Virus genome (UHGV): UHGV-1812412
Direction: 5' to 3' (one strand)
DNA length: 13,700 bases
From: a virus
Under the pieces are notes generated by a model, which made no database searches, was not told where the DNA came from, and saw nothing but the letters and a program-made list of their open reading frames with translations. How positions within the stretch are numbered: position 1 is the first letter of the stretch; each line of letters begins with the position of its first letter. Shown one piece after another: positions 1 through 13,700 of this stretch. The translations under genes were made by a program, and so were the position numbers.

Positions 1-660
1 AAGGCTAAAGAGTTCGGCATGACCGGATCAGAGGTTGGCGAGCTTATCGGGAAACTGGTAGTCGGCTTAGCTGGTCTGAAAGTTATTACTACACTGCTTT
101 CCCCTCTAACCGGATTTGTTTCACTTGTCACCCAACTGATTTCTCTGATAGGCAAGATTCCAGGTCTGGGCAATCTCGTTAAGGGTGCTGGCGGGGCAGT
201 CGCTGGAAGCCCAACAACAGCATTAGCCGCTGGCAGTGCCGCAGGTGTGGGTGTTGGTGTCGCTGGCGCACTGGGCGCTAAGACGGTAGGCGAGAAGTTC
301 AGAGGATGGATGCAAAGCAAGGCTGATCAGTTCGGGGAGTGGGCTAAATCTAAAGGCCTGCTTAGCGATGAACAGGACGCTATGACCAAACCGGGGGCCT
401 ATAACCATAGCTACATCAACAAGGGGGCTTCCTTTAATCCATATCCAACCATTAGCCCGTCACGTCCTACTCCTAGCACTGGTACGGCTATTCAGAATGG
501 TGGCTATCAACCTGCTCAGGTTAATGTGGTGCCTCAAGGTGAGATTTCCGGCAAATGGGAGATAACTATTGATGAGGGGGGAATTGCCAGGGTGATCCAG
601 AAGGAAGTCAGCGATCAGTTGGATTGGAAAGCCACACAGGAATCTAACCAGCTTTTCTAA
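1..660 (+). CDS. Partial CDS (5' end outside window): C-terminal part of a phage tail tape-measure-like protein
   Basis: Frame 1 is open from position 1 (AAG GCT AAA GAG TTC GGC precede the first ATG at 19), stop TAA at 658-660. Product has two hydrophobic helices followed by a Gly/Ala-rich segment (GAGGAVAGSPTTALAAGSAAGVGVGVAGALGA), a pattern typical of tape measure C-terminal regions. Assignment is by composition only. Confidence 0.45.
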   Translation, partial: KAKEFGMTGSEVGELIGKLVVGLAGLKVITTLLSPLTGFVSLVTQLISLIGKIPGLGNLVKGAGGAVAGSPTTALAAGSAAGVGVGVAGALGAKTVGEKFRGWMQSKADQFGEWAKSKGLLSDEQDAMTKPGAYNHSYINKGASFNPYPTISPSRPTPSTGTAIQNGGYQPAQVNVVPQGEISGKWEITIDEGGIARVIQKEVSDQLDWKATQESNQLF

Positions 661-768
661 TGTCCACTCTGTGGATTTGAGTTCTACTCAAACCTGCATA
701 GCAGGCACTAATATTGTGATCTAAATCAATAAGTTAGCCTGACCGGATAAACTCCAGGCAAGAAAAAA

Positions 769-793
769 GCCCCTAAGTGTTAACAAAGGGGCT
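769..793 (-). terminator. Hairpin terminator oriented for minus-strand transcripts
   Basis: GCCCC (769-773) pairs with GGGGC (788-792) around a 14-nt loop; an A-tract at 762-768 on the + strand gives a U-tract after the hairpin on the - strand. Lies about 435 nt downstream of the last minus-strand gene. Confidence 0.45.
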
Positions 794-824
794 CTTCTCC
801 GGTATCCTTTTGATGCGGGGCAAA

Positions 825-870
825 ACCTGCTAACAAAAATCAACCTCTCGCGAGACTAATGTTAGCAGGT
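825..870. repeat. Perfect 11-bp inverted repeat (ACCTGCTAACA / TGTTAGCAGGT) with a 24-nt spacer that contains the palindrome TCTCGCGAGA
   Basis: Read directly: 825-835 is the exact reverse complement of 860-870; nested palindrome at 845-854. Confidence 0.7.
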
Positions 871-1227
871 TGCCGGAAGGTAAGTCAACTCCGGCCTATA
901 AACCTTAAAGCGACTATAAAATCGCCCCGCCAATTGTGATGATCCGACCTTTGAGGCGGGTCCGGTGCCCAGGGGGTGCAGTGATGCACAAACCAGGCAA
1001 CGATAAACAGGCTAACAGTGATAGCGGCGCTCAATCAGCGCACTAAATCCTAACCAGTCCGGGAAAGAGGCTGGCTCTATCGACCGCTCATGCACGGGAC
1101 AATGCATACCTGATAAAGGATTCTCACAAGGGACCAATCGCGAGAAAAGAAGTGGAAAGGGGCTGATTTGTGGTGTATCACTACGGCCTCAAAAGAACAC
1201 TATTGTCTTTTTTAAGCCGGACCGTGA

Positions 1228-1686
1228 TTAGCCTCTCCCCACATTTGACCAATATTTGATTGCACCGATCAAATCATCATAGTGGCGCATGGCATCATTG
1301 AAGCCTTTATAGCTTGCCCATTGTGGGGAAACCTTGTTATTGCTGAATTGCCCACTAATCAGGATAGTCTCCAAAATGTCGGCGTATCGCTTGCCAATTC
1401 GCTTTCTGACGGCCTCAGAGCTCCCACCCTTTACGATTGCATTAATCAGGGCTTTTGTGTGTCTCAGGCTCTCATAGAGCATTGCAGCGTGGGCAGATTC
1501 CATAAAGGAGCGCTTAGGCAGATCACCCCACCCCTCAGAATGAATTGCTGCCAGTGTGGCGTAATTCAGGCCGCTATAGTGCTTTCCGTCATCCCAGCCA
1601 ACCGCTACACCTTCCATCTGTGAGAGCTCTTTATGCAGCTTATCCATCATGCGCTTGTCTATGGTGCAACGGACTTTCGGACTCAT
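1228..1686 (-). CDS. Hypothetical phage-associated protein, 152 aa
   Basis: Intact ORF; its ATG (1686..1684) overlaps the stop of the upstream gene in an ATGA arrangement (translational coupling); GGAGA 7 nt upstream. No family recognised. Confidence 0.55.
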   Translation of the reverse strand: MSPKVRCTIDKRMMDKLHKELSQMEGVAVGWDDGKHYSGLNYATLAAIHSEGWGDLPKRSFMESAHAAMLYESLRHTKALINAIVKGGSSEAVRKRIGKRYADILETILISGQFSNNKVSPQWASYKGFNDAMRHYDDLIGAIKYWSNVGRG

Positions 1687-2513
1687 TTGTTGATCTCCGT
1701 GATGTCATCGAGCAACATGTTGGCCTTATCAATCATCGTTTCGTGGAACTCATTCGACACAACAGACTTATCACCTGCGGCAATCTTTCCAGCAGCCTCT
1801 CCCTGTGCATATTCCCCGCGATGCTTAGCCCTGGTTGATTTCGTAGCAGCGTTGCCAGCGTTGCTACCCTCTTTAGCACTATTAACAGCACCCTTTTGCT
1901 GTGTTTTATTCACCTTCTTACTGTTAGTGAAAACTCCGGCATTTTCGACCATCTTCACCTTGAAGGTGCGGAATTCTTCAAAAGTGCAATCAATAGTGAT
2001 GCAGTCACCAGAGGAAGAGCTACGCTTAACTTCACATTTCGTCATGATGAAGTTCTCAAGGAGTCCGGCATCTTCACTTACCAGGCTAACAAGCTGGCGC
2101 TTGTCTCTCATTTCTATAAGTGCCTGAACAGCGGCGGCAGGGCGCATAGATTCACGGGGATTATCTGGATCAGTGTTCCGGTCGATGTAGTTCTCTTTCC
2201 GGATGATATGAGGGGAAGAGGTAATAATGCCCGTAAAGCTGACAGATTTATCTTTAATGACGGCATGGTCTGACATGGTGGTGCCATCCTCGACCGCATA
2301 GCTCGATTTCTCAACAGGGAACGAATAGCTGACATCAGAGATAGAGTCAAAGAAGATAGCCACATTATCGGTATAGTTGAAGCCATCCATTATATTTTTG
2401 TTTTGTGAATATCCCCCACACATAACAGTGAATGCAGGAGATCTCGACTCAGCTTGTTTTGCAGCTGTCAGAGCATCACTAGCCATAGTAAACATGCCTC
2501 CAAATTGGTCCAC
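1683..2513 (-). CDS. Hypothetical protein, 276 aa, with a Lys/Ala/Gly-rich low-complexity C-terminal region
   Basis: Intact ORF coupled to the downstream gene. The first ATG at 2513 has no usable Shine-Dalgarno; an in-frame ATG at 2486 has GGAGG 10 nt upstream and may be the true start. No family recognised. Confidence 0.55.
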   Translation of the reverse strand: MDQFGGMFTMASDALTAAKQAESRSPAFTVMCGGYSQNKNIMDGFNYTDNVAIFFDSISDVSYSFPVEKSSYAVEDGTTMSDHAVIKDKSVSFTGIITSSPHIIRKENYIDRNTDPDNPRESMRPAAAVQALIEMRDKRQLVSLVSEDAGLLENFIMTKCEVKRSSSSGDCITIDCTFEEFRTFKVKMVENAGVFTNSKKVNKTQQKGAVNSAKEGSNAGNAATKSTRAKHRGEYAQGEAAGKIAAGDKSVVSNEFHETMIDKANMLLDDITEINK

Positions 2514-2645
2514 TTCATGGATTTGGCTAAAGCCAAACCTGCAAAAGATGCAGGCAAAATAGAACTTATCGTTGCCCTGCTTAAAATCTGCAGAAAATAC
2601 AGGGCAGTTATTCGTTAGAATCGCTTATAGCTCTTCCCGAGAGCG

Positions 2646-2897
2646 TTATTTTGCAAAACGGTTATGGGCATTCAGGGCTTTTTTGCGGTCCTGGGCTTGT
2701 TTGCGTGCAATAAAATGTTCGAAAGTCTCGGCCCAGGTGCATTTATTATATTCACGGTACTTATGCATAGCCTGGCGGCTAACGTCATAGCAGGCGGCAA
2801 ATGTGGAGATACGCAGAAATTCCGGCAGATCCTCGTCATCGATATGGATAATATCAAAAGGCACGTCGTCACGGTCGCCGTATAAAACAATTTTCAT
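2646..2897 (-). CDS. Small protein, 83 aa, possible helix-turn-helix DNA-binding protein
   Basis: ORF track starts at a GTG at 2906; the in-frame ATG at 2897 has GAGGTG 6 nt upstream. Segment ISTFAACYDVSRQAMHKY resembles an HTH. Function not established. Confidence 0.5.
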   Translation of the reverse strand: MKIVLYGDRDDVPFDIIHIDDEDLPEFLRISTFAACYDVSRQAMHKYREYNKCTWAETFEHFIARKQAQDRKKALNAHNRFAK

Positions 2898-2931
2898 AAA
2901 AGACACCTCAAAAACTTAAGACGGGGATAAT

Positions 2932-2980
2932 AAAAAAGGGAAGAGGGAAAGACCTATCCCCGATCTCTCACCTCTTCCCT
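2932..2980 (-). terminator. Rho-independent terminator immediately downstream of the capsid-like gene
   Basis: 9-bp stem GGGAAGAGG (2938-2946) / CCTCTTCCC (2971-2979) with a 24-nt loop; A6 at 2932-2937 on + gives a U-tract after the hairpin on the - strand. T-rich on the + side too (2980-2994), so possibly bidirectional. Confidence 0.6.
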
Positions 2981-3010
2981 TTGCTTTTATTTGGCCTTCG
3001 AAGAAGGACC

Positions 3011-4054
3011 TTATTTAGCCTTGGCTTTTGCCAGAGCAGCGGCGGCGGAGTTACTAACACTCACTTTAACCACAACCTCAGGCATCATGTTCATGAAAGC
3101 ATAAGAGGATTCAATGAAGATTTCTCGTTTACCTCTGGACTCTTCCATATACATGAAAGCTTCACGTGCAGCGCCGTTTGCAAGCTTCAGGTTGCGAGCG
3201 CAAGGGCCGAAAAATTGAGTATAAACGCCCACCATATCGCCTAACGCATGTGGCTGGAATTGTGGGACCAGATAAGCAGTATTCTCTGGCAGACTATCCA
3301 TTTGCACCACACGCAGAGCTAAGCCCGGAATGCGGAAGGTCGGGAAGCCCGGCAGAATATCCTCAGGGAACATCAGACCTTTATCGGTAATATTCTGATT
3401 GCCGAACAACAGCACTTTACGGAGCAGTTCATCAGTCTGAATAGCGGCGAACACCTCAGCACGGCAGAACAGGGTGAAACCACGCAGAGCGCGAACGACA
3501 CCACGCTGTTTAACCTTGCTCAGTGCAACCAGGTCCTGCAGTTGTTTGAGAATATCTTGAGCTAGATCCATTTCAGAGGTGGACTGTTCCACGCCCAGCA
3601 GTTCGCACACATTCAGCTCTTTACCCTTGGTGAGGATAATTTTGTTCTCAAAGAGAGCAAGCTGGCGTGCTTCTTCGTGGGTCTGGCGTAAGCCTTCGCC
3701 CAGTTGAATAACACGACGAGCGGTTACAGACTCTAAATTCTCTTCGGAATCTTTGCCCGGAACACGGATACCTTGCCAGTCAGAAGGATAAATAGCACTT
3801 GATGCGGCAGTGAATGCCATATCACCCGTGCCCGTTTCACGCTCATCTGCGGTAATGGTCGCCATCTGTTCACCGTAGCGCGGATACTGACCGAAAGCGG
3901 TTTGTTTCACCTGGCGAACTTTGTCATATTCAAATTTAAAGGTATTGCACAGAGCAGTAGTGTTGAAGATATCCATTGCTGAAATAATCTGGTTATCCAG
4001 CGGGATGTCTTTAATCAAGCCACACAGATCGCGGACTTCGAATTCTTTTTTCAT
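3011..4054 (-). CDS. Putative phage major capsid protein (lambda gpE-like), 347 aa
   Basis: Long ORF; ATG at 4054 with GGAGG 6 nt upstream (ORF track begins at a TTG at 4060). N-terminal MDIFNTTALCNTFKFEYD and C-terminal IESSYAFMNMMPEVVVKVSV resemble lambda gpE (TTAQLL...KFKFD; MIQSAPLMLLADPDEFVSV) as recalled from memory, not search-verified. Followed by a strong terminator, as expected for a highly expressed capsid gene. Confidence 0.55.
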   Translation of the reverse strand: MKKEFEVRDLCGLIKDIPLDNQIISAMDIFNTTALCNTFKFEYDKVRQVKQTAFGQYPRYGEQMATITADERETGTGDMAFTAASSAIYPSDWQGIRVPGKDSEENLESVTARRVIQLGEGLRQTHEEARQLALFENKIILTKGKELNVCELLGVEQSTSEMDLAQDILKQLQDLVALSKVKQRGVVRALRGFTLFCRAEVFAAIQTDELLRKVLLFGNQNITDKGLMFPEDILPGFPTFRIPGLALRVVQMDSLPENTAYLVPQFQPHALGDMVGVYTQFFGPCARNLKLANGAAREAFMYMEESRGKREIFIESSYAFMNMMPEVVVKVSVSNSAAAALAKAKAK

Positions 4055-4065
4055 CTCCAACCTCC

Positions 4066-4401
4066 TTATTGTGCAACACGCAAATCGCCATTGCTGGCAG
4101 CGATAACAGCGGCTAAGCCTTCTTTATCCACGTAGGCCGGATTGATATAACAGCCCTTGTTGGCAACAACGATAAAAGCATCACCAACCTCAGCACGTTC
4201 TACAACCAGCAGCGGAGTTTTATCGGTGTGCGTTTCTTTAACGAAGGTCTCAACCTCGCCAGCCTCAGTCACCACAACAACAGTGCCAGCCGGAATCTCA
4301 GCTTTAACTTTGTTTTTAATTTCAACGTCGCGAATACTAAATTGCTCATCTGCGGCGTATGAAATGATGTGTCCGCGTGTGCGGATAGTCATATCTCTCA
4401 T
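4066..4401 (-). CDS. Putative head decoration / capsid accessory protein, 111 aa
   Basis: ORF ends 11 nt before the capsid start; AGGTGA 6 nt upstream of its ATG. Size and position directly upstream of the capsid gene fit a decoration or cement protein. Function is by context only. Confidence 0.45.
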   Translation of the reverse strand: MRDMTIRTRGHIISYAADEQFSIRDVEIKNKVKAEIPAGTVVVVTEAGEVETFVKETHTDKTPLLVVERAEVGDAFIVVANKGCYINPAYVDKEGLAAVIAASNGDLRVAQ

Positions 4402-5215
4402 TTGATCACCTGCGATTTAAATTAACTCCCCTCAAAGAGTTCCGGTATAACCTCTCAAACCACGACGCTCGGGCCGAAAAGTTATGCCGGAAATCTAAAG
4501 GGAAATTGATACAAGGAGAGGGAGATAGCCCCGCACCGTCCAAGCGGGGGCTATTCCATATGGGGAAAACCAACAACAGTTGGCTGATAGTTCACAGTAT
4601 GGGTTACTAGAGAGCACTATCACGAAAGACACTCCCCCGAATCAGTTCAGGCTGCGGTCACATCAGCGGGGAAATACCTTTCGGGATAGCTACCCACACA
4701 GAAAACCCGCAAAAGAAAACTGTGTGGATAACTAGCCCAATAGGAGAATTAATCGACCACTCAACGATGATCAGGGTAGTGTTATTTATAAGGCGGCACC
4801 GCTACCTGGTCGCCTTTACTTTGGAGGAAAATACGGCAAATCAAGATCTTCTCACAATGATATTGACGCCATACTGTATATTATATCAGTATTTACTCAC
4901 ATTGTCAACACCCTGATTATATAAATTCTAATAATTAGCGTAGTAACGGTATTTTCAGACCTCTATCAATCCCATCAATACGTCACCCCACCCTTTAGAT
5001 GCATACATCCGACCTACTTTGTAGGCTTGGCGTACTGCCAAGGTCGCAGCTATGCGACTCCTATCTATCACCACTTTATAAAGCTTGATAGATATCCGTT
5101 GATCAATATCAATGTTTTCCGGGGATTTACCCGGCTATAGTTCGAATCAAGGAAGGGGAGCATTGATAGCACCCAACCGAGCAAACAAATCAACTTCTCG
5201 CAAAAGGTTATAGAT

Positions 5216-5338
5216 ATGGGTATCAAGAACAGTGCCAGCGCATGGCAAAAGGCCAGGTTTCATCACCCACACATGGTTAAGGCAATTGAGGTGGTTGGAG
5301 TTTTAGCCCTGATGTTAGCTCTGTGTGTGGAGGTGTGA
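5216..5338 (+). CDS. Micro-ORF, 40 aa, hydrophobic C-terminus (MGIKNSASAWQKARFHHPHMVKAIEVVGVLALMLALCVEV)
   Basis: ATG preceded by AAAGG 8 nt upstream inside a 17-nt leader motif that is duplicated before the membrane protein gene; its stop is 1 nt before the next ATG. Confidence 0.25.
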   Translation: MGIKNSASAWQKARFHHPHMVKAIEVVGVLALMLALCVEV

Positions 5339-5339
5339 G

Positions 5340-5420
5340 ATGGGCAAAGGAGGCAAAGCATTTTTAATAGGTCTGGCAGTCTTAGATTTTGTATTAATCA
5401 TCATTGAGCGGAGTTTATGA
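5340..5420 (+). CDS. Micro-ORF, 26 aa, single hydrophobic helix (MGKGGKAFLIGLAVLDFVLIIIERSL)
   Basis: ATG at 5340 with GGAGG 6 nt upstream; its stop overlaps the ATG of the following HTH gene (ATGA at 5417-5420). Confidence 0.25.
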   Translation: MGKGGKAFLIGLAVLDFVLIIIERSL

Positions 5421-5677
5421 CGGGAACTAAAGATATTAAGAGACTGAGGGAAGAGCTGATAGCTGAAATTAAAGCGAAGGCAAAGCAAATGGAGATAGCC
5501 GCACAAATGGATGTAGCGGAACAGATGTACAAGATGGTTGAGGAGGGAACGCCACGACAGGTTATAGCAAAAACCTTCGGTGTGGGGATCGCCACCGTGC
5601 ACAGAAGGCTGAAAGCCTATGCCGACTACCACAATATCGAGAGAAAGGAGGATGGGAGATTTAAGAAGAATAAATAG
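5417..5677 (+). CDS. Small DNA-binding protein with resolvase/invertase-type helix-turn-helix, 86 aa
   Basis: Segment TPRQVIAKTFGVGIATVHRRLK matches the pattern of the Hin/Gin-type C-terminal HTH (PRQ-LA-FG-G-ST--R, recalled from memory); N-terminal half predicted coiled coil. No catalytic recombinase domain present. Confidence 0.65.
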   Translation: MTGTKDIKRLREELIAEIKAKAKQMEIAAQMDVAEQMYKMVEEGTPRQVIAKTFGVGIATVHRRLKAYADYHNIERKEDGRFKKNK

Positions 5678-5769
5678 TGTGAACAGTCCAATAGGTTAAG
5701 CTCTGGCTCATAGCCCTCGCCTCGAGGGTGTTATTAACTAAATTCAACTTCTCGCAAAGGGGTACCATT

Positions 5770-6291
5770 ATGTTATTTCAGAAAGATAAAGAATCAGAAA
5801 ACAAAAAGCTTTTTAAAGCAATAGTAAAAATGTTCTTTCAGTACACTGCAGCGTTTTTGATAGCCGGGCCTTGGTTAATGGCTATCTGTTTTTACCCTGC
5901 TACCTTGTTTATTGGCAGTAGCAAGTTCGGCGATGGCCCGTTTCATGTGGATATTGGTTTTATAGATTCTCTCCTGATCCGTCCTATAAATGCTGTTCTC
6001 AATGCTTTCTACTTCCCCACTAGTCTAGAGGGGTGGTCGGTAACCTGGGGTGTTTTAGGCTTAGCATATGTATATTGGTTGGTTGGCTTTTTGTGGGGTG
6101 CAATCTGTGCTCTCCTCGATATTGATACAGGATCAAGCCGTAGGAGTGGTGGTAATAATAGCGGAGCGGGTGTATATGCACACGTAGGTACCAGAGGGGT
6201 AAGTATCACCGCAGGTACCCGATTCGCTGGCGGCTGGCTGAGCATAGGCAAACGCGGCGTTAGTTGGAGAAAAAGCAAAAAACTGTTCTGA
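5770..6291 (+). CDS. Membrane protein, 173 aa from ATG 5770, with at least two hydrophobic helices and a Gly-rich basic tail containing a repeated G-x-R-G-V-S motif
   Basis: ORF track starts at a GTG at 5728; the ATG at 5770 has AAGGGG 7 nt upstream. Hydrophobic helices FFQYTAAFLIAGPWLMAICFYPATLFI and WGVLGLAYVYWLVGFLWGAICALL; tail has GTRGVS and GKRGVS. Terminator directly downstream. Confidence 0.6.
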   Translation: MLFQKDKESENKKLFKAIVKMFFQYTAAFLIAGPWLMAICFYPATLFIGSSKFGDGPFHVDIGFIDSLLIRPINAVLNAFYFPTSLEGWSVTWGVLGLAYVYWLVGFLWGAICALLDIDTGSSRRSGGNNSGAGVYAHVGTRGVSITAGTRFAGGWLSIGKRGVSWRKSKKLF

Positions 6292-6298
6292 CCTACCA

Positions 6299-6322
6299 GG
6301 GGGGCCATCACGGCCCCTTTTT
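6299..6322 (+). terminator. Rho-independent terminator after the membrane protein gene
   Basis: GGGGCC (6301-6306) / GGCCCC (6312-6317) stem with 5-nt loop, followed by TTTTT (6318-6322). Confidence 0.7.
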
Positions 6323-7636
6323 ATTTATCCCTCAATTAACCCCTATTTATCCCCTATTTAATGCCTATTTATTGATTTAATCCGTTTTATGCCACAACCG
6401 CCCGGTTGACAGAGTAAGAGAGAGGGTGTAACCCTTTTTCGTAATACCAATAAAATCAATAGCTTAGCTCAATTGGCCTTTTCTCTGTTTTTGTCAAATT
6501 TAACATACCCTCAAAAACTGCAAAATCTGGCTGCAAGATTATCTGCAGCTGGATTTCTTACACCTCAATTTGTGGTATCACCCTGACTAGTTTGTGCATA
6601 AAATGAACAGTTTTTAACATTTCCTCCTCACCTGGTAACCACACAAAAAGCTAAAAACGAGGCACAGATAATCTTAGAGGCCTGTTTTCTTGTTATCACT
6701 CTGGGAACGTCGTAGAAGTGATTTTGATGAAAGACGGCCTACCCTATTACACCCCCATTTTTTGTTATCACAATTGCATCCTGTGCGGTATATGACTATG
6801 TGCTGAAAGCGGTCTCAGGTGTTGGTGTCAGAAATATCCATTAGCGGTATTTGAGCTTATGGGTAACTCGTCTGAGGTGCCAGGCAGGCGCTCCCCTACC
6901 TCCCCTTTTTCTTCTAACAATTCTCAAATATCACACCACTGCCCACCACGTTGCTATTATGTTAATTCTTAAGCTTTGCTGTATGTTGTGCACATTATTT
7001 ATTCAGATGCATGTACGTAAATTCTGTGCCCACTGATCATGATTTTTAAATCAGATTTTGTAGTGCGCTTTATTAGTGTAGATAAGATCTATTATGTTAA
7101 ATGCAATTTTCCCAACCCTTCAAATCAATGACTTACATGTAAGCATGCACTAACACCCCACACAGCACATTAGACGTGTAGATGTCTATATCCCACATTT
7201 TTGATTGTTTTGTAGTCATTCCCCTGATCATTTAACCAGTATAGTTTGCTCTCTGCAGACCACAAAATCGGAATTTACATCTGATTAACATAATCTGTTA
7301 GCATGATCACCATTACCCACACAACAATAACCCCATGCAAGCCTCTTCAGGCAATTTATCGGCGTGTTGGTGTGAACAGTCTTTCATGTTCTTTATGTAT
7401 TCATGACTGCAAGGAATGTATTCATTGGCCTGTGTGGGGGAAGGATGGACTGCCTCAGGGGCCATACTTATGATGCCCGGTCAACATAGCTGTTGATAAA
7501 ATCAATGGGTGTTGATCTGCGTATTTCCCACACATGAGAGGAAATCAAAGCAAAGAGAGAGGAGAGAGGTTTGTTAGTCAAAATAGGTCAATTGACGGCT
7601 AATACAGAGTAAAAAATCAGATGCAATCACTCCCCC

Positions 7637-7819
7637 ACCTGTTGGGATTTCCCTCACCTGTATAAGAATACAGTCATACTTTCCCGTTATACGGTCATAC
7701 ACATGATGGAATAACCTGTTGGAATTTCCCACAGGTTCAACCATACATAAGCATTAACCTGTTGGAATTTCCTACTACTACCTGTCGGTATTTCCCACAG
7801 GTACCTGTTGGAATTTCCC
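7637..7819. repeat. Iteron array: five direct copies of a 17-mer ACCTGTYGGWATTTCCC
   Basis: Copies at 7637-7653, 7714-7730, 7757-7772, 7780-7796, 7803-7819; the last three are exactly 23 bp apart. Two copies are followed by the inverse ACAGGT. Partial copies of the ATTTCCCACA core at 7522-7534 and 8321-8333. Confidence 0.75.
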
Positions 7820-7911
7820 ACACTAATAGATAAAGAGAATAGATTAATAAAAAGATACCCCCCTAACCCCCCAGGGGGAATGGGGAGGGATCAGAGAGTG
7901 GGGAAGGTTTT

Positions 7912-8014
7912 CTAGATGTACGTAATTGGTACACTTAAAGGTGGATAATATGAGGCTAGATGTACGTAATTGGTACACTTAGAATATTCTAGATGTACGT
8001 AATTGGTACACTTA
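7912..8014. repeat. Three identical 26-bp direct repeats CTAGATGTACGTAATTGGTACACTTA, each with an internal dyad TGTAC-N7-GTACA
   Basis: Copies at 7912-7937, 7956-7981, 7989-8014; start-to-start spacing 44 and 33 bp (multiples of about 11, same helical face). A near DnaA box GGTGGATAA lies at 7940-7948. Confidence 0.8.
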
Positions 8015-8339
8015 AATCACATAAGTTATTGAGTTTATTAGAAAAAGTGATTCACCTATATATACTACTGATTCGCCTCCGCTCATCATTAGTATGGTGT
8101 AACTGATTCATGCTTCGCTTACGCTCACATTCATCTACTTACACCCCCTTATCTGAATTGAACATTCCCGTCCAATCCAGCTAAGAGAATTGATTGAACA
8201 TTACCTAACATCCGTTAGCTAACATTCTAATCAATTAACTACTTAATCACTTCCACACCTTCCGGTGGTGCCAAGTGTCCTGGCATGGTGGGAAAAGATT
8301 CTGCCGTTTTAGGTAGAATTGATTTCCCACAAATAGTAA

Positions 8340-8660
8340 GTGTCGGCCCTTCAATGTCACTCTCCTATGAGGGGGAGAGATGACGGGCCTCCTGTGTGGG
8401 TGAGTATCGGAGCAGTCTGTGAAGTATGAGCAGGCTGTGAGATACGCTACTGTATATCTGCGTAGAACAGCCTCCGCTGTTTACGCTCTTTGTGTGGGTC
8501 CGGCGAATGCGACAGCATGAGGCCCACATGTGGACCGCTGCCGAAAGCTTGCCAGCGCCGGAAGGAGGCGGCAAAGAGTCTCCCGCGCGGTTGTAGGTCC
8601 GCGCCGGACTTTAACTTACAGTTAAACCCTTCGGGCTTGTGCGGGTGCACGCACACATAT
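8340..8660. other. GC-rich, hairpin-dense non-coding island, candidate structured RNA or DNA processing site
   Basis: Sharp rise in GC relative to AT-rich flanks. Local stems include TCTCC/GGAGA (8361-8379), GCGCGG/CCGCGC (8585-8604), TTTAAC/GTTAAA (8609-8625) and GTGCG/CGCAC (8639-8654). The only ORFs are two overlapping Arg/Pro/Ser-rich minus-strand frames without RBS. Confidence 0.3.
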
Positions 8661-8843
8661 ATATAAAGGATACACTCATAAATCGAAAATAAGCGCGATT
8701 TTAGCGCCTACAGCGAGATAAACTATACTCCCTAGTGTAATTGCATTACCTGATGCTTAAATCGCGTTGTAGGGCCTCTCATGAGGTTTGAGTTTAACAC
8801 CCTCCAAAGTTTTAACAAAAAGTGCTCTCCCTCCATTGTGGGC

Positions 8844-9013
8844 CATTGACAATCTTATTGCATAAATGCTATAAGTTATTCTGATTTTGACACGGTAGGG
8901 GCCATTAATAATGCTTACCCCTTTGCTGTGGACTTGCTTGTGTCTGCTGTGCAGGCTATGGCACCTATAGCTCGCCTAAATGATAATGATTCCTATTGAC
9001 AATTGGTTGTCAA
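8844..9013 (+). promoter_or_regulatory. Operator-like 9-bp palindromes ATTGACAAT overlapping -35-like TTGACA hexamers; candidate tandem promoters
   Basis: ATTGACAAT at 8844-8852 and 8995-9003; the second is part of an 18-bp dyad TTGACAA-TTGG-TTGTCAA (8996-9013). Possible promoters: TTGACA 8846-8851 + 18 nt + TATAAG 8870-8875; TTGACA 8996-9001 + 17 nt + TAAGAT 9019-9024. Confidence 0.4.
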
Positions 9014-9059
9014 TATGATAAGATTATAGATAGTGGGAGAAACAGATCCGGAGGTCAAC

Positions 9060-9209
9060 GTGGAACTGAGCGACGCTATAGCGATCATCAACCTGGCTGT
9101 ACTGTGGTGCGGTGTTGCCTACATAGCCGGAGTAACTGCAATCGACAACCTTGAAGAAAAAATGATAGATAAATACAAAAAGATTGTTGACAATCTCGCA
9201 AATAGCTGA
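9060..9209 (+). CDS. Small hydrophobic protein, 49 aa, GTG start
   Basis: GGAGG at 9050-9054, 5 nt before the GTG at 9060; product MELSDAIAIINLAVLWCGVAYIAGVTAIDNLEEKMIDKYKKIVDNLANS has one predicted transmembrane helix. Not in the supplied ORF track (below the length cutoff). Confidence 0.35.
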   Translation: MELSDAIAIINLAVLWCGVAYIAGVTAIDNLEEKMIDKYKKIVDNLANS

Positions 9210-9215
9210 TAAAAT
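9182..9215 (+). promoter_or_regulatory. Sigma70-type promoter with an operator dyad over the -35
   Basis: -35 TTGACA (9187-9192), 17-nt spacer, -10 TAAAAT (9210-9215); dyad GATTGT-TG-ACAATC (9182-9195) overlaps the -35 and shares the TTGACAAT core with the upstream palindromes. Confidence 0.5.
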
Positions 9216-9263
9216 ATAAATCATAGGGTAATTCTCAGCATGTGAATTTTCCTTAAACAGACT

Positions 9264-9295
9264 AGCGGGGCTTGTCTTGAGTCCCGTTTCTTTTT
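9264..9295 (+). terminator. Promoter-proximal hairpin plus U-tract (attenuator or 3' end of a short RNA)
   Basis: CGGGGC (9266-9271) pairs with GTCCCG (9281-9286), with one G-U pair, around a 9-nt loop, followed by TTTCTTTTT (9287-9295). Sits about 50 nt after the predicted start site and 44 nt before the next ATG. Confidence 0.5.
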
Positions 9296-9338
9296 AAACC
9301 TACATCGCACAGGCGGTGAGCCAACAGGAGATTGAATC

Positions 9339-9548
9339 ATGGCTAAAACTGGACCGATCAGCCAGCTGGTAGACTGGACTACTGACGAAATCGTCGAGAA
9401 CGTGCTTAAAGGTAACTTTCGAAAAACTTCTGTTTATGCATTTATTCGAAAACACAAAGGAGAATATCCACACATTGAAGCGGCAATAGAAAAACTTAAC
9501 TTTATTAAACTTGAGCGCCAGCTGGAAAGATATAAACACCTACTTTGA
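9339..9548 (+). CDS. Small protein, 69 aa, possibly DNA-binding
   Basis: AGGAG at 9326-9330, 8 nt before the ATG; first gene after the promoter/attenuator. No family recognised. Confidence 0.6.
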   Translation: MAKTGPISQLVDWTTDEIVENVLKGNFRKTSVYAFIRKHKGEYPHIEAAIEKLNFIKLERQLERYKHLL

Positions 9549-9584
9549 TAAAAGGTAACCGTAACCCGGTAAGAGGTAAACATT

Positions 9585-10454
9585 ATGAATATTAAGTCTG
9601 TTTTTAATATAACTTTAAATGATGATCCTAGTATCCTTTTGCTGCCTATGCTCATAAACAAATCTGGACTATTAAAAAAAGGCGACGCAAGGGATATTTA
9701 TATTTATATGTGGAATATTTACTATCTCAACGCTAAAAAAGAGGCCGCCAAGGTGTTCAGTAAGAAGACTAAAGGAAGAAGCCTCAGTCAGGATATGAAA
9801 GATTCCATAAGAAAAGAATGTTTTGCAATTAATGATAAAGATTCCTGTGTGGAAATCTCTTATAAGGATATAGAGGAAAGAGTAGGAATATTACGACCAC
9901 ACGCAGTAAGGGCAATTAAAAAGCTGGAATCTGAAGGAATTATCACCTGCCTTAAAAAAGGCAATAAGCATAACCCTTATGCATCATGGCAAATTAATGT
10001 CGGAATCTTTGAAATGATGGAAAGAGTAGGGATTGAAAACCTCATTGGGTGGGATCTCTTAAAACCATATTGGAAGAAAGAACAGGAAGCAGCCGGAAGA
10101 GGGGAGGGGGATAAAGCCCCGCAAGAAGCCCCAAAACAGGCCGCACAGCAAGCTAAAAAGGCCGAGGTGGTGCAGTTCCCTTCTACGAAAGATAAGAGCG
10201 TCAGAATCGAGCGTAGCTCTCATCCTGAAAGTGTGACAACGTCACCTGTTAAGACAAACAATGAAGGGCCAGTGAAAGAGATACCCAAAATTATAGACAT
10301 TTCTTCTTTTATGGCAGATGAGGAAGATATGCAAGATGAGTGGTGGACACCTCCAGAAAATAATGATTATGGTTATGATCCTTATGGCTATGATGAAGAT
10401 GAATATAGCCCGTTTGAAGATGAATATATAAATGATTCCGCTATCCCTTATTAA
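9585..10454 (+). CDS. Winged-helix DNA-binding protein, 289 aa, with a Lys/Ala/Gln-rich linker and an acidic, aromatic C-terminal tail; candidate replication initiator or regulator
   Basis: AAGAGGT 7 nt before the ATG. Segment ISYKDIEERVGILRPHAVRAIKKLESEGIITC has the classic winged-helix pattern seen in replication initiators and MarR-like regulators; C-terminus DEEDMQDEWWTPPENNDYGYDPYGYDEDEYSPFEDEY. Function inferred. Confidence 0.75.
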   Translation: MNIKSVFNITLNDDPSILLLPMLINKSGLLKKGDARDIYIYMWNIYYLNAKKEAAKVFSKKTKGRSLSQDMKDSIRKECFAINDKDSCVEISYKDIEERVGILRPHAVRAIKKLESEGIITCLKKGNKHNPYASWQINVGIFEMMERVGIENLIGWDLLKPYWKKEQEAAGRGEGDKAPQEAPKQAAQQAKKAEVVQFPSTKDKSVRIERSSHPESVTTSPVKTNNEGPVKEIPKIIDISSFMADEEDMQDEWWTPPENNDYGYDPYGYDEDEYSPFEDEYINDSAIPY

Positions 10455-10542
10455 TACCCCCAAATAAACTAAATAAACTAAACATAGAATTACTAGAACT
10501 AGATTGATTGCCCTGATCTTTTAAACGTTCGGAGAATTAATC

Positions 10543-11028
10543 ATGTTCAAATCTGATCTTTCTGATTCCCAATTTGAAAAACTGGTAGCACTGCAGAAAT
10601 ATCTCCCCAGTGATGATCAACCAACACGACAGGCCAAACACTTATTAGTCGAGGGCTTTACCCCTGAATTCGTAGCGGAATATACAGGCGTTAAACTTGA
10701 GAAAGTCCAAAAACTATATAATGAGTCCTGGAATCCACGGTGTCGAGTTCCCCTCAGTGTCTATAACGAAATAGATAGAGATAAAAATGTCTTCGAAGAT
10801 CGCCGCCGCAAATCTCTTTTAATGTGGAATTGCGGGATGAATATTGAAGAGATAGCAAAAGAATTAAAAGTAACCTGCTTTCATATTTGGGGCTTGTTGA
10901 GTGAAATCCTGCCACGTAAGGAGCTTAATCAACGTTTGCCTAAGCCCGGTAGTCGTGCTTATCGCGAATTTATATTCATCTACCGCCGCCATAGCAATAA
11001 AGTCCGGAAAGCAATGCAGCGCAAATAG
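10543..11028 (+). CDS. Hypothetical protein, 161 aa, with two HTH-like segments and a basic C-terminus
   Basis: GGAGA 7 nt before the ATG; HTH-like segments FTPEFVAEYTGVKLEKVQKLY and MNIEEIAKELKVTCFHIWGLL. Could be a small terminase subunit-like or regulatory protein; not resolved. Confidence 0.7.
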   Translation: MFKSDLSDSQFEKLVALQKYLPSDDQPTRQAKHLLVEGFTPEFVAEYTGVKLEKVQKLYNESWNPRCRVPLSVYNEIDRDKNVFEDRRRKSLLMWNCGMNIEEIAKELKVTCFHIWGLLSEILPRKELNQRLPKPGSRAYREFIFIYRRHSNKVRKAMQRK

Positions 11029-11116
11029 CTTATAGCCTTCACATATGCCGCAAGTTATTGATTCTGCCGTCCGGTAAATATGCCGGATGGCTCATATAAA
11101 TTTTAAGGAATTCCAA

Positions 11117-11560
11117 ATGTCTCAAATCGCTAAATTACTATCCCAGGTTATCAAAGCTATCGACGCTGAAGATTCAAAAGTTCGCCAGGATCTTTTAGAT
11201 GGCAAGTTTACCAATACTCTGGCATTTACCCGTGACAAAGAGCACTTCTTAGAGCACAAACATCCCGCCTTTGTTGAATGCAAGTCCGCTAATGGTGATG
11301 TTTTCTATGTCGATTTGGTGGTTATGGCTATGCGCCTGTGGATGATTCAGGACCTTATGCGCCAACACGGTGATGATCCTCTTATCAGCATGTGGAACAG
11401 CGCCCAGGATGGCTTTGTGATTGCTGCCTTATCCAAATCCATGATTGAGGCAGAAGGCGCAAGCCTTCAAAACATGGCAGATCTCTTTGAAATAAGCGTA
11501 GGAATGATGCAGACCATGCTGCAGGCGGTGAAGCCTCTCAAGCTGGTTAACCTTGAATAA
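11117..11560 (+). CDS. Hypothetical protein, 147 aa
   Basis: ORF track begins at an ATG at 11087 with no RBS; the in-frame ATG at 11117 has AAGGAA 6 nt upstream. Followed by a terminator. Confidence 0.65.
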   Translation: MSQIAKLLSQVIKAIDAEDSKVRQDLLDGKFTNTLAFTRDKEHFLEHKHPAFVECKSANGDVFYVDLVVMAMRLWMIQDLMRQHGDDPLISMWNSAQDGFVIAALSKSMIEAEGASLQNMADLFEISVGMMQTMLQAVKPLKLVNLE

Positions 11561-11571
11561 TTGATTAATAA

Positions 11572-11606
11572 GCACCCTCAAAAAATGGGGGTGCCTTTAT
11601 TTATCT
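11572..11606 (+). terminator. Rho-independent terminator
   Basis: GCACCC (11572-11577) / GGGTGC (11589-11594) stem followed by the T-rich run CTTTATTTATCTT. Confidence 0.6.
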
Positions 11607-11638
11607 TACTTTTCACGTTTATCTAAAAGGATATGCCT

Positions 11639-12022
11639 ATGAATATTGAAGAAATGATAGTTGAATTCGATGATGGTGATTTCCTGGAAGATGGGGAGTT
11701 TAAATACTCCCGTTTTAAACAGGCGTTATTTAGCAGCGATGATAAACCCCACGTTAGTGATCTAAATGACGATGATTTATGTCGCTGGGTATGCACCCGC
11801 TTATATGAGGATGGAAAATATACAGGCCAAAACTTTCCAAATCTCTATTTCAAAGCACAAACATTTGAGGAAGGGCAAAGAGTGAAAAACCTGGTCGATA
11901 AAATGCTGTCAGCCGGATATTTGCATAAAGAATTATTAAATCCTAAAGCTGAAAGCAAGCGCCATTATATTTTTGTGTGGACTATTGGCGATAAGTGTCC
12001 ACTAAGACGCAAAGGCAAATGA
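11639..12022 (+). CDS. Acidic protein, 127 aa, in the position of a tail assembly chaperone
   Basis: ATG at 11639 has AAGGA 8 nt upstream (the ATG at 11633 is too close to it). Product is strongly acidic at the N-terminus; sits two genes upstream of the tape measure gene, as gpG-like chaperones do. Inferred from position and composition. Confidence 0.55.
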   Translation: MNIEEMIVEFDDGDFLEDGEFKYSRFKQALFSSDDKPHVSDLNDDDLCRWVCTRLYEDGKYTGQNFPNLYFKAQTFEEGQRVKNLVDKMLSAGYLHKELLNPKAESKRHYIFVWTIGDKCPLRRKGK

Positions 12023-12023
12023 T

Positions 12024-12209
12024 ATGAATACCTACGAAAAGATTTATCAAAAATTAAAAAGTGATAACAATGCTCCCGTCATCAAGGGCGGGGCTTCTTC
12101 CTCTGGTGACCTCTCAATCGAAGAGCTTGCGGAGAAATATAATATTGATAAAGAGGCCCTGAAAAGGGCTATTTCATTATCAAAATCTTTAAGACAGGGC
12201 GAGGTGTAA
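12024..12209 (+). CDS. Small protein, 61 aa, immediately upstream of the tape measure gene
   Basis: ATG 1 nt after the stop of the preceding gene (TGA-t-ATG); ends 3 nt before the tape measure ATG. Could be independent or the extension part of a frameshifted chaperone. Confidence 0.45.
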   Translation: MNTYEKIYQKLKSDNNAPVIKGGASSSGDLSIEELAEKYNIDKEALKRAISLSKSLRQGEV

Positions 12210-12212
12210 GAG

Positions 12213-13700
12213 ATGGCAATGAAGGAAGTCGCCAGACTAACAAACGTTATTTACTGGGATTCTGATAAATCCAGCTGGCGAAAAGAAGTTAAACGGCTTG
12301 AGGATTATAAAAAATCCTGGAAGAAAGCCACCGACGATATAGCTAAAGCTGATTTTAAATCTAATCAGGCTGTGCTCAGAACACAAAGAACACGCGCTAA
12401 GGTGGAAGAGCAGATTGCCAGAGCTCAGAGGAAACAACAGGAAGCACAGAAGAAACAACGTGCTCAGGCTGTCAGCCGTCTGACCGGGGGCAACAATGCC
12501 GAACTTAACTCTATGCGCAAGTTCTATCAGCAGCAAGCCAGAGAGGCCGCCAGACAACAAAAACTGTTAGATCGTAGTGTTGGAGATGTTCAGCACAGAA
12601 AAGCACGTGTAGGGGCCAACAGTGCACGAATTAGCGGCATGTTTGATGGCTCTATCGTCTCCCAGTTCCAGGGGCGCATTCAAAGAGTTAATGCTGATTA
12701 TGCTAAAGGGGCTATAAACCTGCAGACCTATAATCAGAGGATGGCTCGGCTCAGAGCTGAAATGAAGATGGCAACAGCAGAGGCCGGAAAATTTCAGAGC
12801 AGACTGGATAAACTGGCATCAGGTGCCAGCAAGGTGCATGACAACCTGGGCAAAATCAACTCCACACTAGGCAAGATAGCCATTGGCCTTACTGCCGCTG
12901 GCTGGGGTGTTCAGCGTGCTGTTAGTGGTGCTATGGGTAGCCTTGCAGATCGCAACAGTGCCTACTTCGGTTTAATGGCTCAGAACAAGGATGATAAAGC
13001 CAAGACTGATCAGCAGATGGCTTTTATCAAGAACACAGCCTACACCTATGGGATGGATGAGCGGGAGATGCAAGGGGGCTACATGCGCTTTGCTGCAGCT
13101 ACTCCCACCATGAAGGAATCTGATAAGCAGGCTCTTTTTGAGGCTATGGCTATTAAAGGTCGCTCAGTGGGTGCTACTGGCGAGCAACAGAACAGGGCGC
13201 TTGTTGCGGTCCAACAAATGGCTTCAAAGGGAAAAGTTATGGCAGAAGAGCTGCGGGGCCAACTGTCAGAAGCCTTTGCAGGCTCACAACAGGATTTTCA
13301 ACAGGCCGCTATTGATGCCGGAATCATCAAGAATGCCCAGGAATTCGATAAAGCCCTTAAAGATGGCAAAATCACCCTGGACAAACTTCTTCCTTCTCTG
13401 GTGAAAATCTGGGGTGCAGCAAAAGAAACTAAAGCTTTTGCTGAATCCATGAAACAACCGGAAGTAGCACTGCAGCGCATGAAAAACAGCTTTAACGAGC
13501 TGGCGATTCAGTTTATGGGTGTTGTGGATCCTGCGGATGGCGTTATTAGCTTATCTGAATCTCTGATCTCCATCTTCGAAGACCTCACCACTGATATGGA
13601 CGGCAGCGGGAGCGCGGCAAAACAGTTCGGTGAGGCAGTCGGGGCTGCCATGCGTGAGATCATGTATTGGGTAGGCTTCGCTAAGGGATATATTGAGGTC
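12213..13700 (+). CDS. Partial CDS (3' end outside window): N-terminal part of a phage tail tape measure protein
   Basis: ATG at 12213 with GAGGTG 7 nt upstream; frame stays open to the window edge (496 codons). Missing from the supplied ORF track because it has no stop in the window. Coiled-coil N-terminus, then NRALVAVQQMASKGKVMAEELRGQLSEAF, which matches the conserved tape-measure domain pattern. Confidence 0.8.
   Translation, partial: MAMKEVARLTNVIYWDSDKSSWRKEVKRLEDYKKSWKKATDDIAKADFKSNQAVLRTQRTRAKVEEQIARAQRKQQEAQKKQRAQAVSRLTGGNNAELNSMRKFYQQQAREAARQQKLLDRSVGDVQHRKARVGANSARISGMFDGSIVSQFQGRIQRVNADYAKGAINLQTYNQRMARLRAEMKMATAEAGKFQSRLDKLASGASKVHDNLGKINSTLGKIAIGLTAAGWGVQRAVSGAMGSLADRNSAYFGLMAQNKDDKAKTDQQMAFIKNTAYTYGMDEREMQGGYMRFAAATPTMKESDKQALFEAMAIKGRSVGATGEQQNRALVAVQQMASKGKVMAEELRGQLSEAFAGSQQDFQQAAIDAGIIKNAQEFDKALKDGKITLDKLLPSLVKIWGAAKETKAFAESMKQPEVALQRMKNSFNELAIQFMGVVDPADGVISLSESLISIFEDLTTDMDGSGSAAKQFGEAVGAAMREIMYWVGFAKGYIEV

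What the first reader, a model, noticed from the sequence alone, without database searches (positions are those of the whole stretch)
11639..12212. Acidic 127-aa ORF and overlapping 61-aa ORF directly upstream of the tape measure gene: chaperone pair or frameshift?
Tail assembly chaperones are small acidic proteins encoded just before the tape measure gene, often with a frameshifted extension. Here the downstream frame is +1 relative to the upstream ORF and is open only from 12006, so a shift would have to occur within AGA CGC AAA GGC AAA TGA. No canonical slippery heptamer is seen, so simple translational coupling is equally likely.
Basis: inference. Interest (0 to 1): 0.4.

Follow-up and report, generated by a model that had tools for sequence, protein, structure and literature searches.

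The report
Two coupled small genes, not frameshift
The two small genes in front of the tape measure gene are separate, back-to-back genes for small helix-turn-helix-type proteins, not a frameshifted tail-chaperone pair, and they sit on a 13.7 kb E. coli plasmid that looks like a phage satellite.

Summary
A 127-aa ORF (11639-12022) is followed after one base by a 61-aa ORF (12024-12209). The tape measure gene starts at 12213.

The chaperone/frameshift reading is not supported:
- In 24 homologous loci, ORF2 always keeps its own ATG, an invariant N-terminus and an AAGG Shine-Dalgarno inside ORF1's last codons.
- The frame relation is not conserved: +1 in 22 loci, -1 in one, and in-frame behind a stop plus 9 nt in the most divergent relative.
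- ORF1 has no slippery heptamer.
- ORF2 looks like a helix plus a helix-turn-helix joined by a variable linker; this evidence is weak.
- rV5-like phages, whose tail proteins resemble this plasmid's (27-50% identity), do carry a true Phage_TAC_15 chaperone with a T TTT TTC -1 site.

Both ORFs are under purifying selection and occur only in this E. coli plasmid family. Most likely they are translationally coupled DNA-binding accessory proteins. A non-canonical chaperone role cannot be excluded. The plasmid itself, a likely satellite carrying capsid and tail-length genes, is the more interesting lead.

The parts
11572..11604 (+). Intrinsic terminator (9-bp stem with 6 GC pairs, then a T-rich tail) between the upstream 157-aa ORF and ORF1. 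It sets ORF1-ORF2-TMP apart as its own expression unit.
   Evidence: sequence
11625..11630 (+). Shine-Dalgarno-like AAGGA, 8 nt before the 11639 ATG of ORF1
   Evidence: read from the sequence; homologues start at MNIEEM
11639..12022 (+). ORF1, 127 aa. It has an acidic, poorly modelled N-terminal segment, a predicted winged helix-turn-helix core (about residues 40-120) and a basic RRKGK tail. It is an orphan family found only in this E. coli plasmid family.
12011..12015 (+). AAAGG Shine-Dalgarno for ORF2, embedded in the last Lys-Gly-Lys codons of ORF1, 8 nt before the ORF2 ATG. Conserved in the 23 E. coli-type loci sampled; the divergent L019 has GAGAG instead.
12020..12026 (+). Stop-start junction TGA T ATG (1-nt spacer). 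Homologous loci have a 1-nt (22 loci), 2-nt (1) or 9-nt (1) spacer.
12024..12209 (+). ORF2, 61 aa. It has an invariant N-terminal helix (MNTYEKIYQKL), an indel-rich disordered linker and an invariant C-terminal helix-turn-helix-like pair (LSIEELAEKYNIDKEALKRAISLSKSLRQGEV).
12201..12206 (+). GAGGTG Shine-Dalgarno for the tape measure gene, formed by the last Glu-Val codons of ORF2. In locus L014, whose ORF2 end differs, a separate GAGGTG follows the stop.
12213..13700 (+). Tape measure protein gene. It runs over the window end and continues at 1-660 if the plasmid is circularised (715 aa).

Best explanation
ORF1 and ORF2 are two independent genes at the head of a three-gene unit, ORF1-ORF2-tape measure. 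The unit follows a strong terminator on a ~13.7 kb circular E. coli plasmid.

Each downstream gene starts 1-13 nt after the previous stop. Each uses a Shine-Dalgarno (SD) sequence written into the last codons of the gene before it. The three proteins are therefore made by ordinary translational coupling, with no programmed frameshift and no fusion protein.

ORF1 is a small winged helix-turn-helix protein with an acidic N-terminal tail and a basic wing and C-terminus. ORF2 is a mini-protein with a conserved N-terminal helix and a conserved C-terminal helix-turn-helix-like pair, joined by a flexible linker of variable length. Neither is a homologue of the G/GT tail assembly chaperones.

Shown: gene structure, coupling signals, non-conserved frame relation, purifying selection, absence from TAC families, and a predicted winged-helix fold for ORF1.

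Inferred: they bind nucleic acid. They may act as regulators, or as factors that recognise the plasmid's DNA for packaging or replication, for example at the unassigned 23-nt and 30-nt repeat arrays. They would be made at the same time as the tape measure protein when a helper phage infects.
For: Junction:
- TGA-N-ATG with an AAAGG SD is conserved in 22 of 24 loci. One locus has a 2-nt spacer (-1 frame). The most divergent relative has stop + 9 nt with ORF2 in frame.
- ORF2's ATG and its MNTYEKIY N-terminus are invariant across 44-45 protein clusters.
- ORF2-to-TMP spacers are 1, 3, 5 or 13 nt, always with a GAGGT SD.
- No X XXY YYZ heptamer lies in the ORF1 frame.
- dN/dS is 0.14-0.34 for both ORFs.

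ORF1:
- No hit in Pfam, PHROGs or NCBIfam at E<=1 apart from one chance-level DUF.
- An exhaustive HMMER scan of 1.8 billion representatives found only the plasmid family.
- The AF2 model has pLDDT 72.7, with the core at 80-90.
- The few named BFVD hits are PadR/HTH/TrmB types, none a chaperone.

ORF2:
- Sub-threshold HTH hits: YlxM 8e-4, GntR, HTH_11.
- The AF2 model shows helix 3-13, disorder at 14-31, then helices 32-38 and 43-57.
- PGAP names the identical protein 'helix-turn-helix domain-containing' in one genome.

Context: a terminator lies upstream and repeat arrays elsewhere on the plasmid have no assigned binding protein.
Against: - The position directly in front of, and coupled to, a tape measure gene is where chaperones sit in phages, and no other chaperone candidate was found on the plasmid.
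- Winged-helix domains can also mediate protein-protein contacts.
- The ORF1 model rests on only 6 sequences and has moderate confidence.
- No DNA target was tied to either protein.
- The 2-nt spacer variant comes from a single short-read assembly.
Confidence: 0.55

Rival explanations
1. Separate genes, but functional analogues of G and T. ORF1 (acidic N-terminus) and ORF2 (two conserved ends on a flexible tether) would be a non-canonical, non-homologous pair of tape measure chaperones/adaptors. They would keep the plasmid's own tape measure protein soluble and hand it to the helper phage's tube protein.
For: - Synteny of ORF1-ORF2-TMP is conserved in all 24 loci, including the 46%-identical relative.
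- Tight coupling would give co-production with TMP.
- The plasmid carries rV5-like TMP, tube initiator and tail completion proteins but no recognisable TAC.
- In rV5-like phage FV3 the same position holds the TAC and its -1 extension.
- The N-terminal ~130 residues of TMP are very basic and nearly invariant.
- ORF2's architecture resembles a tether.
Against: - No sequence or profile similarity to any TAC family, although the neighbouring tail genes are still 27-50% identical to rV5-like phage genes.
- The helper's own TAC could serve.
Confidence: 0.3
2. Programmed +1 (or -2) ribosomal frameshift within AGA CGC AAA GGC AAA TGA produces a ~189-aa ORF1-ORF2 fusion, a G/GT-like arrangement.
For: - ORF2 is in the +1 frame in 22 of 24 loci.
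- An SD-like AAGG lies just upstream of the AAA-TGA stop, faintly reminiscent of the prfB site (own knowledge).
- The sizes resemble G and the T extension.
Against: - Frame relation is -1 in L015 and 0 in L019.
- The last sense codon varies AAA/AAG, the spacer base varies T/C, and the preceding codons vary.
- No slippery heptamer.
- The overlap window is only 18 nt.
- ORF2 keeps its own ATG and SD everywhere.
- The SD-like element is 1 nt from the putative shift codon, unlike prfB where the spacing is 3 nt (own knowledge).
- True TACs of related phages conserve T TTT TTC, seen as an invariant GCFF.
Confidence: 0.03
3. One or both ORFs are not real genes (chance ORFs in a leader region of the tape measure gene).
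For: No database family matches. ORF2 is very short.
Against: - Purifying selection, dN/dS 0.14-0.34, at up to 46% synonymous divergence and saturated in L019.
- Both are conserved as ORFs in every locus.
- The models are confident and structured.
Confidence: 0.01

Closest known systems
Lambda-type tail assembly chaperones gpG/gpGT (conserved -1 frameshift upstream of the tape measure gene; Xu, Hendrix and Duda 2004, from my own knowledge)
   Same: Two small ORFs immediately upstream of a tape measure gene, of roughly the size of G plus a T extension. The first ORF is partly acidic.
   Different: - No tube gene upstream.
- ORF2 has its own conserved ATG and SD.
- No slippery site.
- The frame relation varies among homologues.
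- No sequence or fold similarity.
- The predicted fold of ORF1 is a winged helix.
rV5-like (Vequintavirinae) TAC, Pfam Phage_TAC_15, e.g. FV3_00051 with its -1 extension FV3_00050
   Same: It occupies the same slot in front of a tape measure gene. The FV3 neighbours of that slot (tube initiator, tail completion protein) have 50% and 43% identical homologues on this plasmid.
   Different: FV3 has a bona fide TAC (1.1e-23) and an in-frame T TTT TTC heptamer giving a 244-aa GT product. ORF1 shows hhalign probability 0.25% to that family.
Small winged-helix DNA-binding proteins (MarR/PadR/ArsR-type regulators; TubR centromere-binding protein; N-terminal winged helix of lambda Nu1 small terminase, the last from my own knowledge)
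   Different: No sequence-level membership. It has an acidic N-terminal extension. No partner NTPase or terminase is on the plasmid. DNA binding is untested.
prfB-type +1 programmed frameshift at a stop codon (own knowledge)
   Same: The shift would have to happen at a sense codon followed by UGA, with an SD-like element upstream.
   Different: The shift codon AAA/AAG is not conserved and re-pairs poorly in +1. The SD spacing is wrong. The frame relation is not conserved.
Phage satellites that carry structural genes (cf-PICIs with capsid genes; EPIPs of Mycolicibacterium with a tape measure gene, PMC12822802)
   Same: A small (~13.7 kb) element with some but not all virion genes, including a tape measure gene as in EPIPs.
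   Different: The element is extrachromosomal and in E. coli. Its tail genes are related to virulent rV5-like myoviruses. No helper or transfer has been shown. The ORF1/ORF2 pair has no counterpart in any library searched here.

Membership tests
G/GT tail assembly chaperone pair with programmed frameshift | Located directly upstream of the tape measure gene | tested here: met
   ORF2 stop at 12209, TMP ATG at 12213. Synteny holds in all 24 loci.
G/GT tail assembly chaperone pair with programmed frameshift | Located downstream of the major tail/tube gene within a tail module | tested here: not met
   The upstream genes are a Rep-like wHTH protein, HTH proteins and unknowns, followed by a terminator. 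No tube or sheath gene was detected among the plasmid ORFs scanned.
G/GT tail assembly chaperone pair with programmed frameshift | Downstream ORF expressed only as a frameshifted extension (no conserved start of its own, substantial overlap) | tested here: not met
   ATG, SD and the MNTYEKIY N-terminus are invariant. The open overlap is only 18 nt.
G/GT tail assembly chaperone pair with programmed frameshift | Conserved slippery sequence in the upstream frame | tested here: not met
   No X XXY YYZ heptamer in ORF1. The candidate window varies among loci. The positive control FV3 has T TTT TTC.
G/GT tail assembly chaperone pair with programmed frameshift | Frame relation between the two ORFs conserved among homologues | tested here: not met
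   +1 in 22 loci, -1 in 1, in-frame in 1.
G/GT tail assembly chaperone pair with programmed frameshift | Sequence membership in a TAC family (Pfam Phage_TAC_*, PHROG TAC families) | tested here: not met
   No hit at E<=1. hhalign probability 0.25% against the rV5-type TAC.
G/GT tail assembly chaperone pair with programmed frameshift | Binds the tape measure protein and (T part) the tube protein | not testable with these tools
   Needs pull-downs or complex prediction.
Winged helix-turn-helix DNA-binding proteins | Winged-helix fold (helices, recognition helix, beta-hairpin wing) | tested here: met
Winged helix-turn-helix DNA-binding proteins | Sequence membership in a curated wHTH family (MarR, PadR, ArsR and others) | tested here: not met
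   No Pfam or NCBIfam hit.
Winged helix-turn-helix DNA-binding proteins | Sequence-specific DNA binding | not testable with these tools
   Candidate sites are the repeat arrays at 7637-7825 and 7910-8016. No link was established.
Small HTH proteins (YlxM/sigma region 4-like) for ORF2 | Score above the family threshold, or a significant fold match | tested here: inconclusive
Translationally coupled operon genes | Stop and next start within a few nucleotides, with the SD inside the upstream gene, conserved among homologues | tested here: met
   Spacers are 1/2/9 nt (ORF1 to ORF2) and 1/3/5/13 nt (ORF2 to TMP). AAAGG and GAGGT SDs are conserved.

The most novel reading that the evidence does not exclude
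The window is a plasmid-borne satellite of virulent rV5-like myoviruses. It brings its own capsid protein and its own tail-length set (tape measure, tube initiator, tail completion protein). It has replaced the canonical frameshifted G/GT chaperone with an unrelated winged-helix/HTH pair. That pair would act as a new kind of tape measure chaperone or adaptor, or as the factor that redirects helper packaging to the plasmid.
Probability: 0.2. Interest if true: 0.7.

Novelty: new member of a known kind. Interest (0 to 1): 0.3.

Why it matters
For annotation: position in front of a tape measure gene is not enough to call a tail assembly chaperone or a frameshift. Comparing the frame relation across homologues settles the question cheaply.

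For biology: the pair belongs to an undescribed-looking family of ~13-14 kb E. coli plasmids. These carry a capsid gene and three rV5-like tail genes but no terminase, portal, tube or sheath. If the plasmids are satellites, ORF1 and ORF2 are the obvious candidates for how the element's tape measure protein gets used, or how its DNA gets recognised. They are small enough to test directly.

Tried and rejected
- Megablast of 9000-13700 against the phage collection found nothing.
- tblastn of the capsid protein against phages found nothing.
- ORF2 and TMP profiles against GTDB species representatives, and the ORF2 profile against IMG/VR, found no relatives. A single-sequence TMP scan of IMG/VR found only distant (23-34%) phage TMPs, some with an rV5-like gene layout.
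- A profile search with the ORF2 alignment returned only the same E. coli plasmid family.
- Sequence and profile searches of PDB gave no credible hit.
- BLASTP of ORF1, ORF2 and the upstream 157-aa ORF against the FV3 TAC and its extension gave nothing.
- Rfam and tRNA scans of the window were empty.
- I looked for a motif shared between the ORF1 upstream region and other upstream regions, as a candidate late promoter or operator. No shared 8-mer was found.
- Readthrough from ORF2 into TMP was considered, because in this window they share a frame (TAA GAG ATG). It was rejected because the spacer is 1, 5 or 13 nt in other loci.
- Five literature searches found no description of this plasmid family.

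Full report
**1. What is in the sequence**

ORF1 can start at 11633 or 11639 and ends with TGA at 12020-12022. Homologues start at MNIEEM, and the AAGGA Shine-Dalgarno (SD) sequence is correctly spaced only for 11639.

ORF2 starts one base after that stop (TGA T ATG, 12024) and ends with TAA at 12207-12209. It lies in the +1 frame relative to ORF1.

The next gene starts at 12213 and is a tape measure protein (TMP):
- Pfam TMP_3 1.7e-13 and phrog_5255 1e-134.
- It stays open across the window end and closes at 660, giving 715 aa.

ORF1 is only mildly acidic overall (pI 5.6). Its N-terminal half has pI 4.2 and its C-terminal half pI 9.8. The ORFs do not overlap start to stop.

**2. Where the window comes from**

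The window is essentially a whole circular plasmid. It is 92-95% identical to 13.3-13.7 kb E. coli plasmids. These occur in 7 of 5,426 complete genomes, always on plasmids. Protein look-ups also show hundreds of 13-14 kb contigs in draft assemblies.

The plasmid encodes:
- a major capsid protein (phrog_29);
- a Dit-like tail tube initiator;
- a tail completion/Neck1-like protein;
- the TMP;
- a replication-initiator-like winged-helix protein;
- several HTH proteins.

None of the ORFs scanned matched a terminase, portal, tube or sheath family.

Three tail proteins have homologues in rV5-like myoviruses such as FV3:
- tube initiator, 50% identity;
- tail completion protein, 43%;
- TMP, 27%.

Upstream of ORF1 there is no tube gene. 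There is a strong intrinsic terminator at 11572-11604. The 'tail module' premise is therefore only partly true.

**3. Frameshift or coupling**

I collected 24 homologous loci: the window, seven RefSeq plasmids and 16 contigs from draft assemblies. I measured the junctions in each.

ORF1 to ORF2 junction:
- Twenty-two loci have the 1-nt spacer (+1 frame).
- L015 has TGA TT ATG, which puts ORF2 in the -1 frame.
- L019, the most divergent relative (ORF1 46% identical), has TGA + 9 nt + ATG, with ORF2 in the same frame as ORF1 behind the stop.

In all of them ORF2 keeps its ATG. Its N-terminus, MNTYEKIYQKL, is invariant or nearly so across 44-45 protein clusters. An AAAGG SD sits in the Lys-Gly-Lys codons that end ORF1; L019 has GAGAG instead.

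The putative shift window varies:
- The last sense codon is AAA or AAG.
- The spacer base is T or C.
- The preceding codons differ.
- There is no X XXY YYZ heptamer anywhere in the ORF1 frame.

The ORF2 to TMP junction behaves the same way. Spacers are 1, 3, 5 or 13 nt. A GAGGT SD is built from ORF2's last codons. In L014, whose ORF2 end differs, the SD is supplied separately.

Both ORFs are under purifying selection (dN/dS 0.14-0.34).

This is the signature of three translationally coupled genes. A conserved fusion protein is not compatible with a frame relation that changes among homologues.

**4. The positive control**

In phage FV3 the slot before the TMP holds a real chaperone, FV3_00051 (Pfam Phage_TAC_15, 1.1e-23). 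An in-frame T TTT TTC heptamer lies about 100 nt before its stop. The -1 frame is open from there through the annotated 82-aa ORF and gives a 244-aa GT product.

The residues encoded by the heptamer (GCFF) are invariant between TACs that are only 42% identical. A genuine G/GT arrangement in this lineage is therefore easy to recognise. The plasmid does not have it.

**5. What the two proteins are**

ORF1:
- It has no hit in Pfam, PHROGs or NCBIfam beyond a chance-level DUF.
- An exhaustive HMMER scan of 1.84 billion representatives found only the plasmid family and one low-complexity match.
- hhalign against the rV5-type TAC profile gives probability 0.25%.
- AlphaFold2 on a 6-sequence alignment gave pLDDT 72.7, with 80-90 over residues 40-120.
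- Foldseek against viral models gave nothing at E<=1e-3. The few named hits were PadR/HTH/TrmB-type proteins, none a tail chaperone.

ORF2:
- It has only sub-threshold HTH matches: YlxM/UPF0122 8e-4, GntR and HTH_11.
- Its model has a helix at 3-13, a disordered stretch at 14-31, then helices at 32-38 and 43-57.
- Family members range from 60 to 99 aa. Every length difference falls in the linker, while both ends are invariant.
- Some ORF1 variants carry insertions just before the conserved KRKGK end.

**6. Most likely mechanism**

Shown:
- These are separate, coupled genes.
- They are not members of the G/GT family.
- ORF1 has a predicted winged-helix fold.

Inferred:
- They are nucleic-acid-binding accessory proteins made together with the TMP.
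- Plausible roles are regulation, or recognition of the plasmid's own DNA.
- The plasmid has two repeat arrays with no assigned binding protein: five 23-nt units at 7637-7825 and three 30-nt units at 7910-8016.

The main rival is that they are non-homologous functional substitutes for the chaperone. The slot, the coupling, the lack of any other chaperone candidate and ORF2's tether-like build all favour this. The fold prediction argues against it. So does the fact that the neighbouring tail genes are still recognisably rV5-like while this pair is not.

My probabilities are about 0.55 for the DNA-binding reading, 0.30 for the chaperone-analogue reading and 0.03 for a frameshift.

**7. Novelty and verdict**

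As a frameshift candidate the finding is negative and ordinary: two coupled small genes. The proteins are orphans confined to one E. coli plasmid family.

The plasmid family itself looks like an undescribed satellite-type element related to virulent rV5-like phages. Five full-text searches found no description of it. The nearest literature item is a mycobacterial satellite class that also carries a tape measure gene. That context deserves follow-up more than the frameshift question does.

Noticed in passing
window 1-13700 (whole window): The window is a complete ~13.7 kb circular E. coli plasmid. It has a capsid gene (3011-4060, minus strand), a Dit-like tube initiator (1683-2513, minus), a tail completion/Neck1-like gene (1228-1686, minus) and a TMP (12213 to 660). 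No terminase, portal, tube or sheath gene was found. The three tail proteins are 27-50% identical to rV5-like (Vequintavirinae) phage proteins. It looks like an undescribed plasmid-borne phage satellite. It is present in 7 of 5,426 complete E. coli genomes and in hundreds of draft contigs of 13-14 kb.
   Followed up: partly
window 6300-9300: About 3 kb is almost free of ORFs and holds iteron-like arrays. There are five 23-nt partly palindromic units (ACCTGTTGGAATTTCCCACAGGT, 7637-7825), three 30-nt units (7910-8016) and two 22-nt units (6322-6365). They probably include the replication origin and perhaps a packaging or operator site. There are no Rfam or tRNA hits.
   Followed up: partly
window 11572-11604: A strong intrinsic terminator lies directly before ORF1, and no sigma-70-like promoter was found on the + strand between it and ORF1. 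The ORF1-ORF2-TMP unit may therefore need read-through or a helper-specific promoter.
   Followed up: no
window 12060-12115 (ORF2 linker); proteins P0013, P0020, P0027, P0045: The ORF2 linker is a hotspot of in-frame insertions and deletions (family members are 60-99 aa), while both ends are invariant. That is unusual for a compact HTH domain and suggests a two-ended tether.
   Followed up: partly
L002 (NZ_CP020521.1) ORF1 homologue 8973-9407; protein P0003 in L030: Some ORF1 variants (144-162 aa) carry one or two copies of an inserted basic segment (...TLAKAKP...) just before the conserved KRKGK end.
   Followed up: no
NZ_CP043822.1 (39,610 bp plasmid; L005 is one of the three places): This plasmid matches the query at three places and is about three times the unit length. 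It is either a multimer of the element or an assembly artefact.
   Followed up: no
L018 (phage FV3) 4569-4575: There is a canonical -1 slippery heptamer T TTT TTC in the Phage_TAC_15 gene. It gives a 244-aa GT product that the record annotates as a separate 82-aa hypothetical protein.
   Followed up: yes
window 12207-12215: In this window ORF2 and the TMP share a reading frame (TAA GAG ATG). A readthrough fusion would be possible here, but the spacer is 1, 5 or 13 nt in other loci, so this is not conserved.
   Followed up: yes
window 3011-4060 (minus strand): The capsid protein matches phrog_29 (1.8e-21) but has no tblastn hit at 1e-5 in 50,697 phage records. Its origin therefore differs from that of the rV5-like tail genes.
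   Followed up: partly
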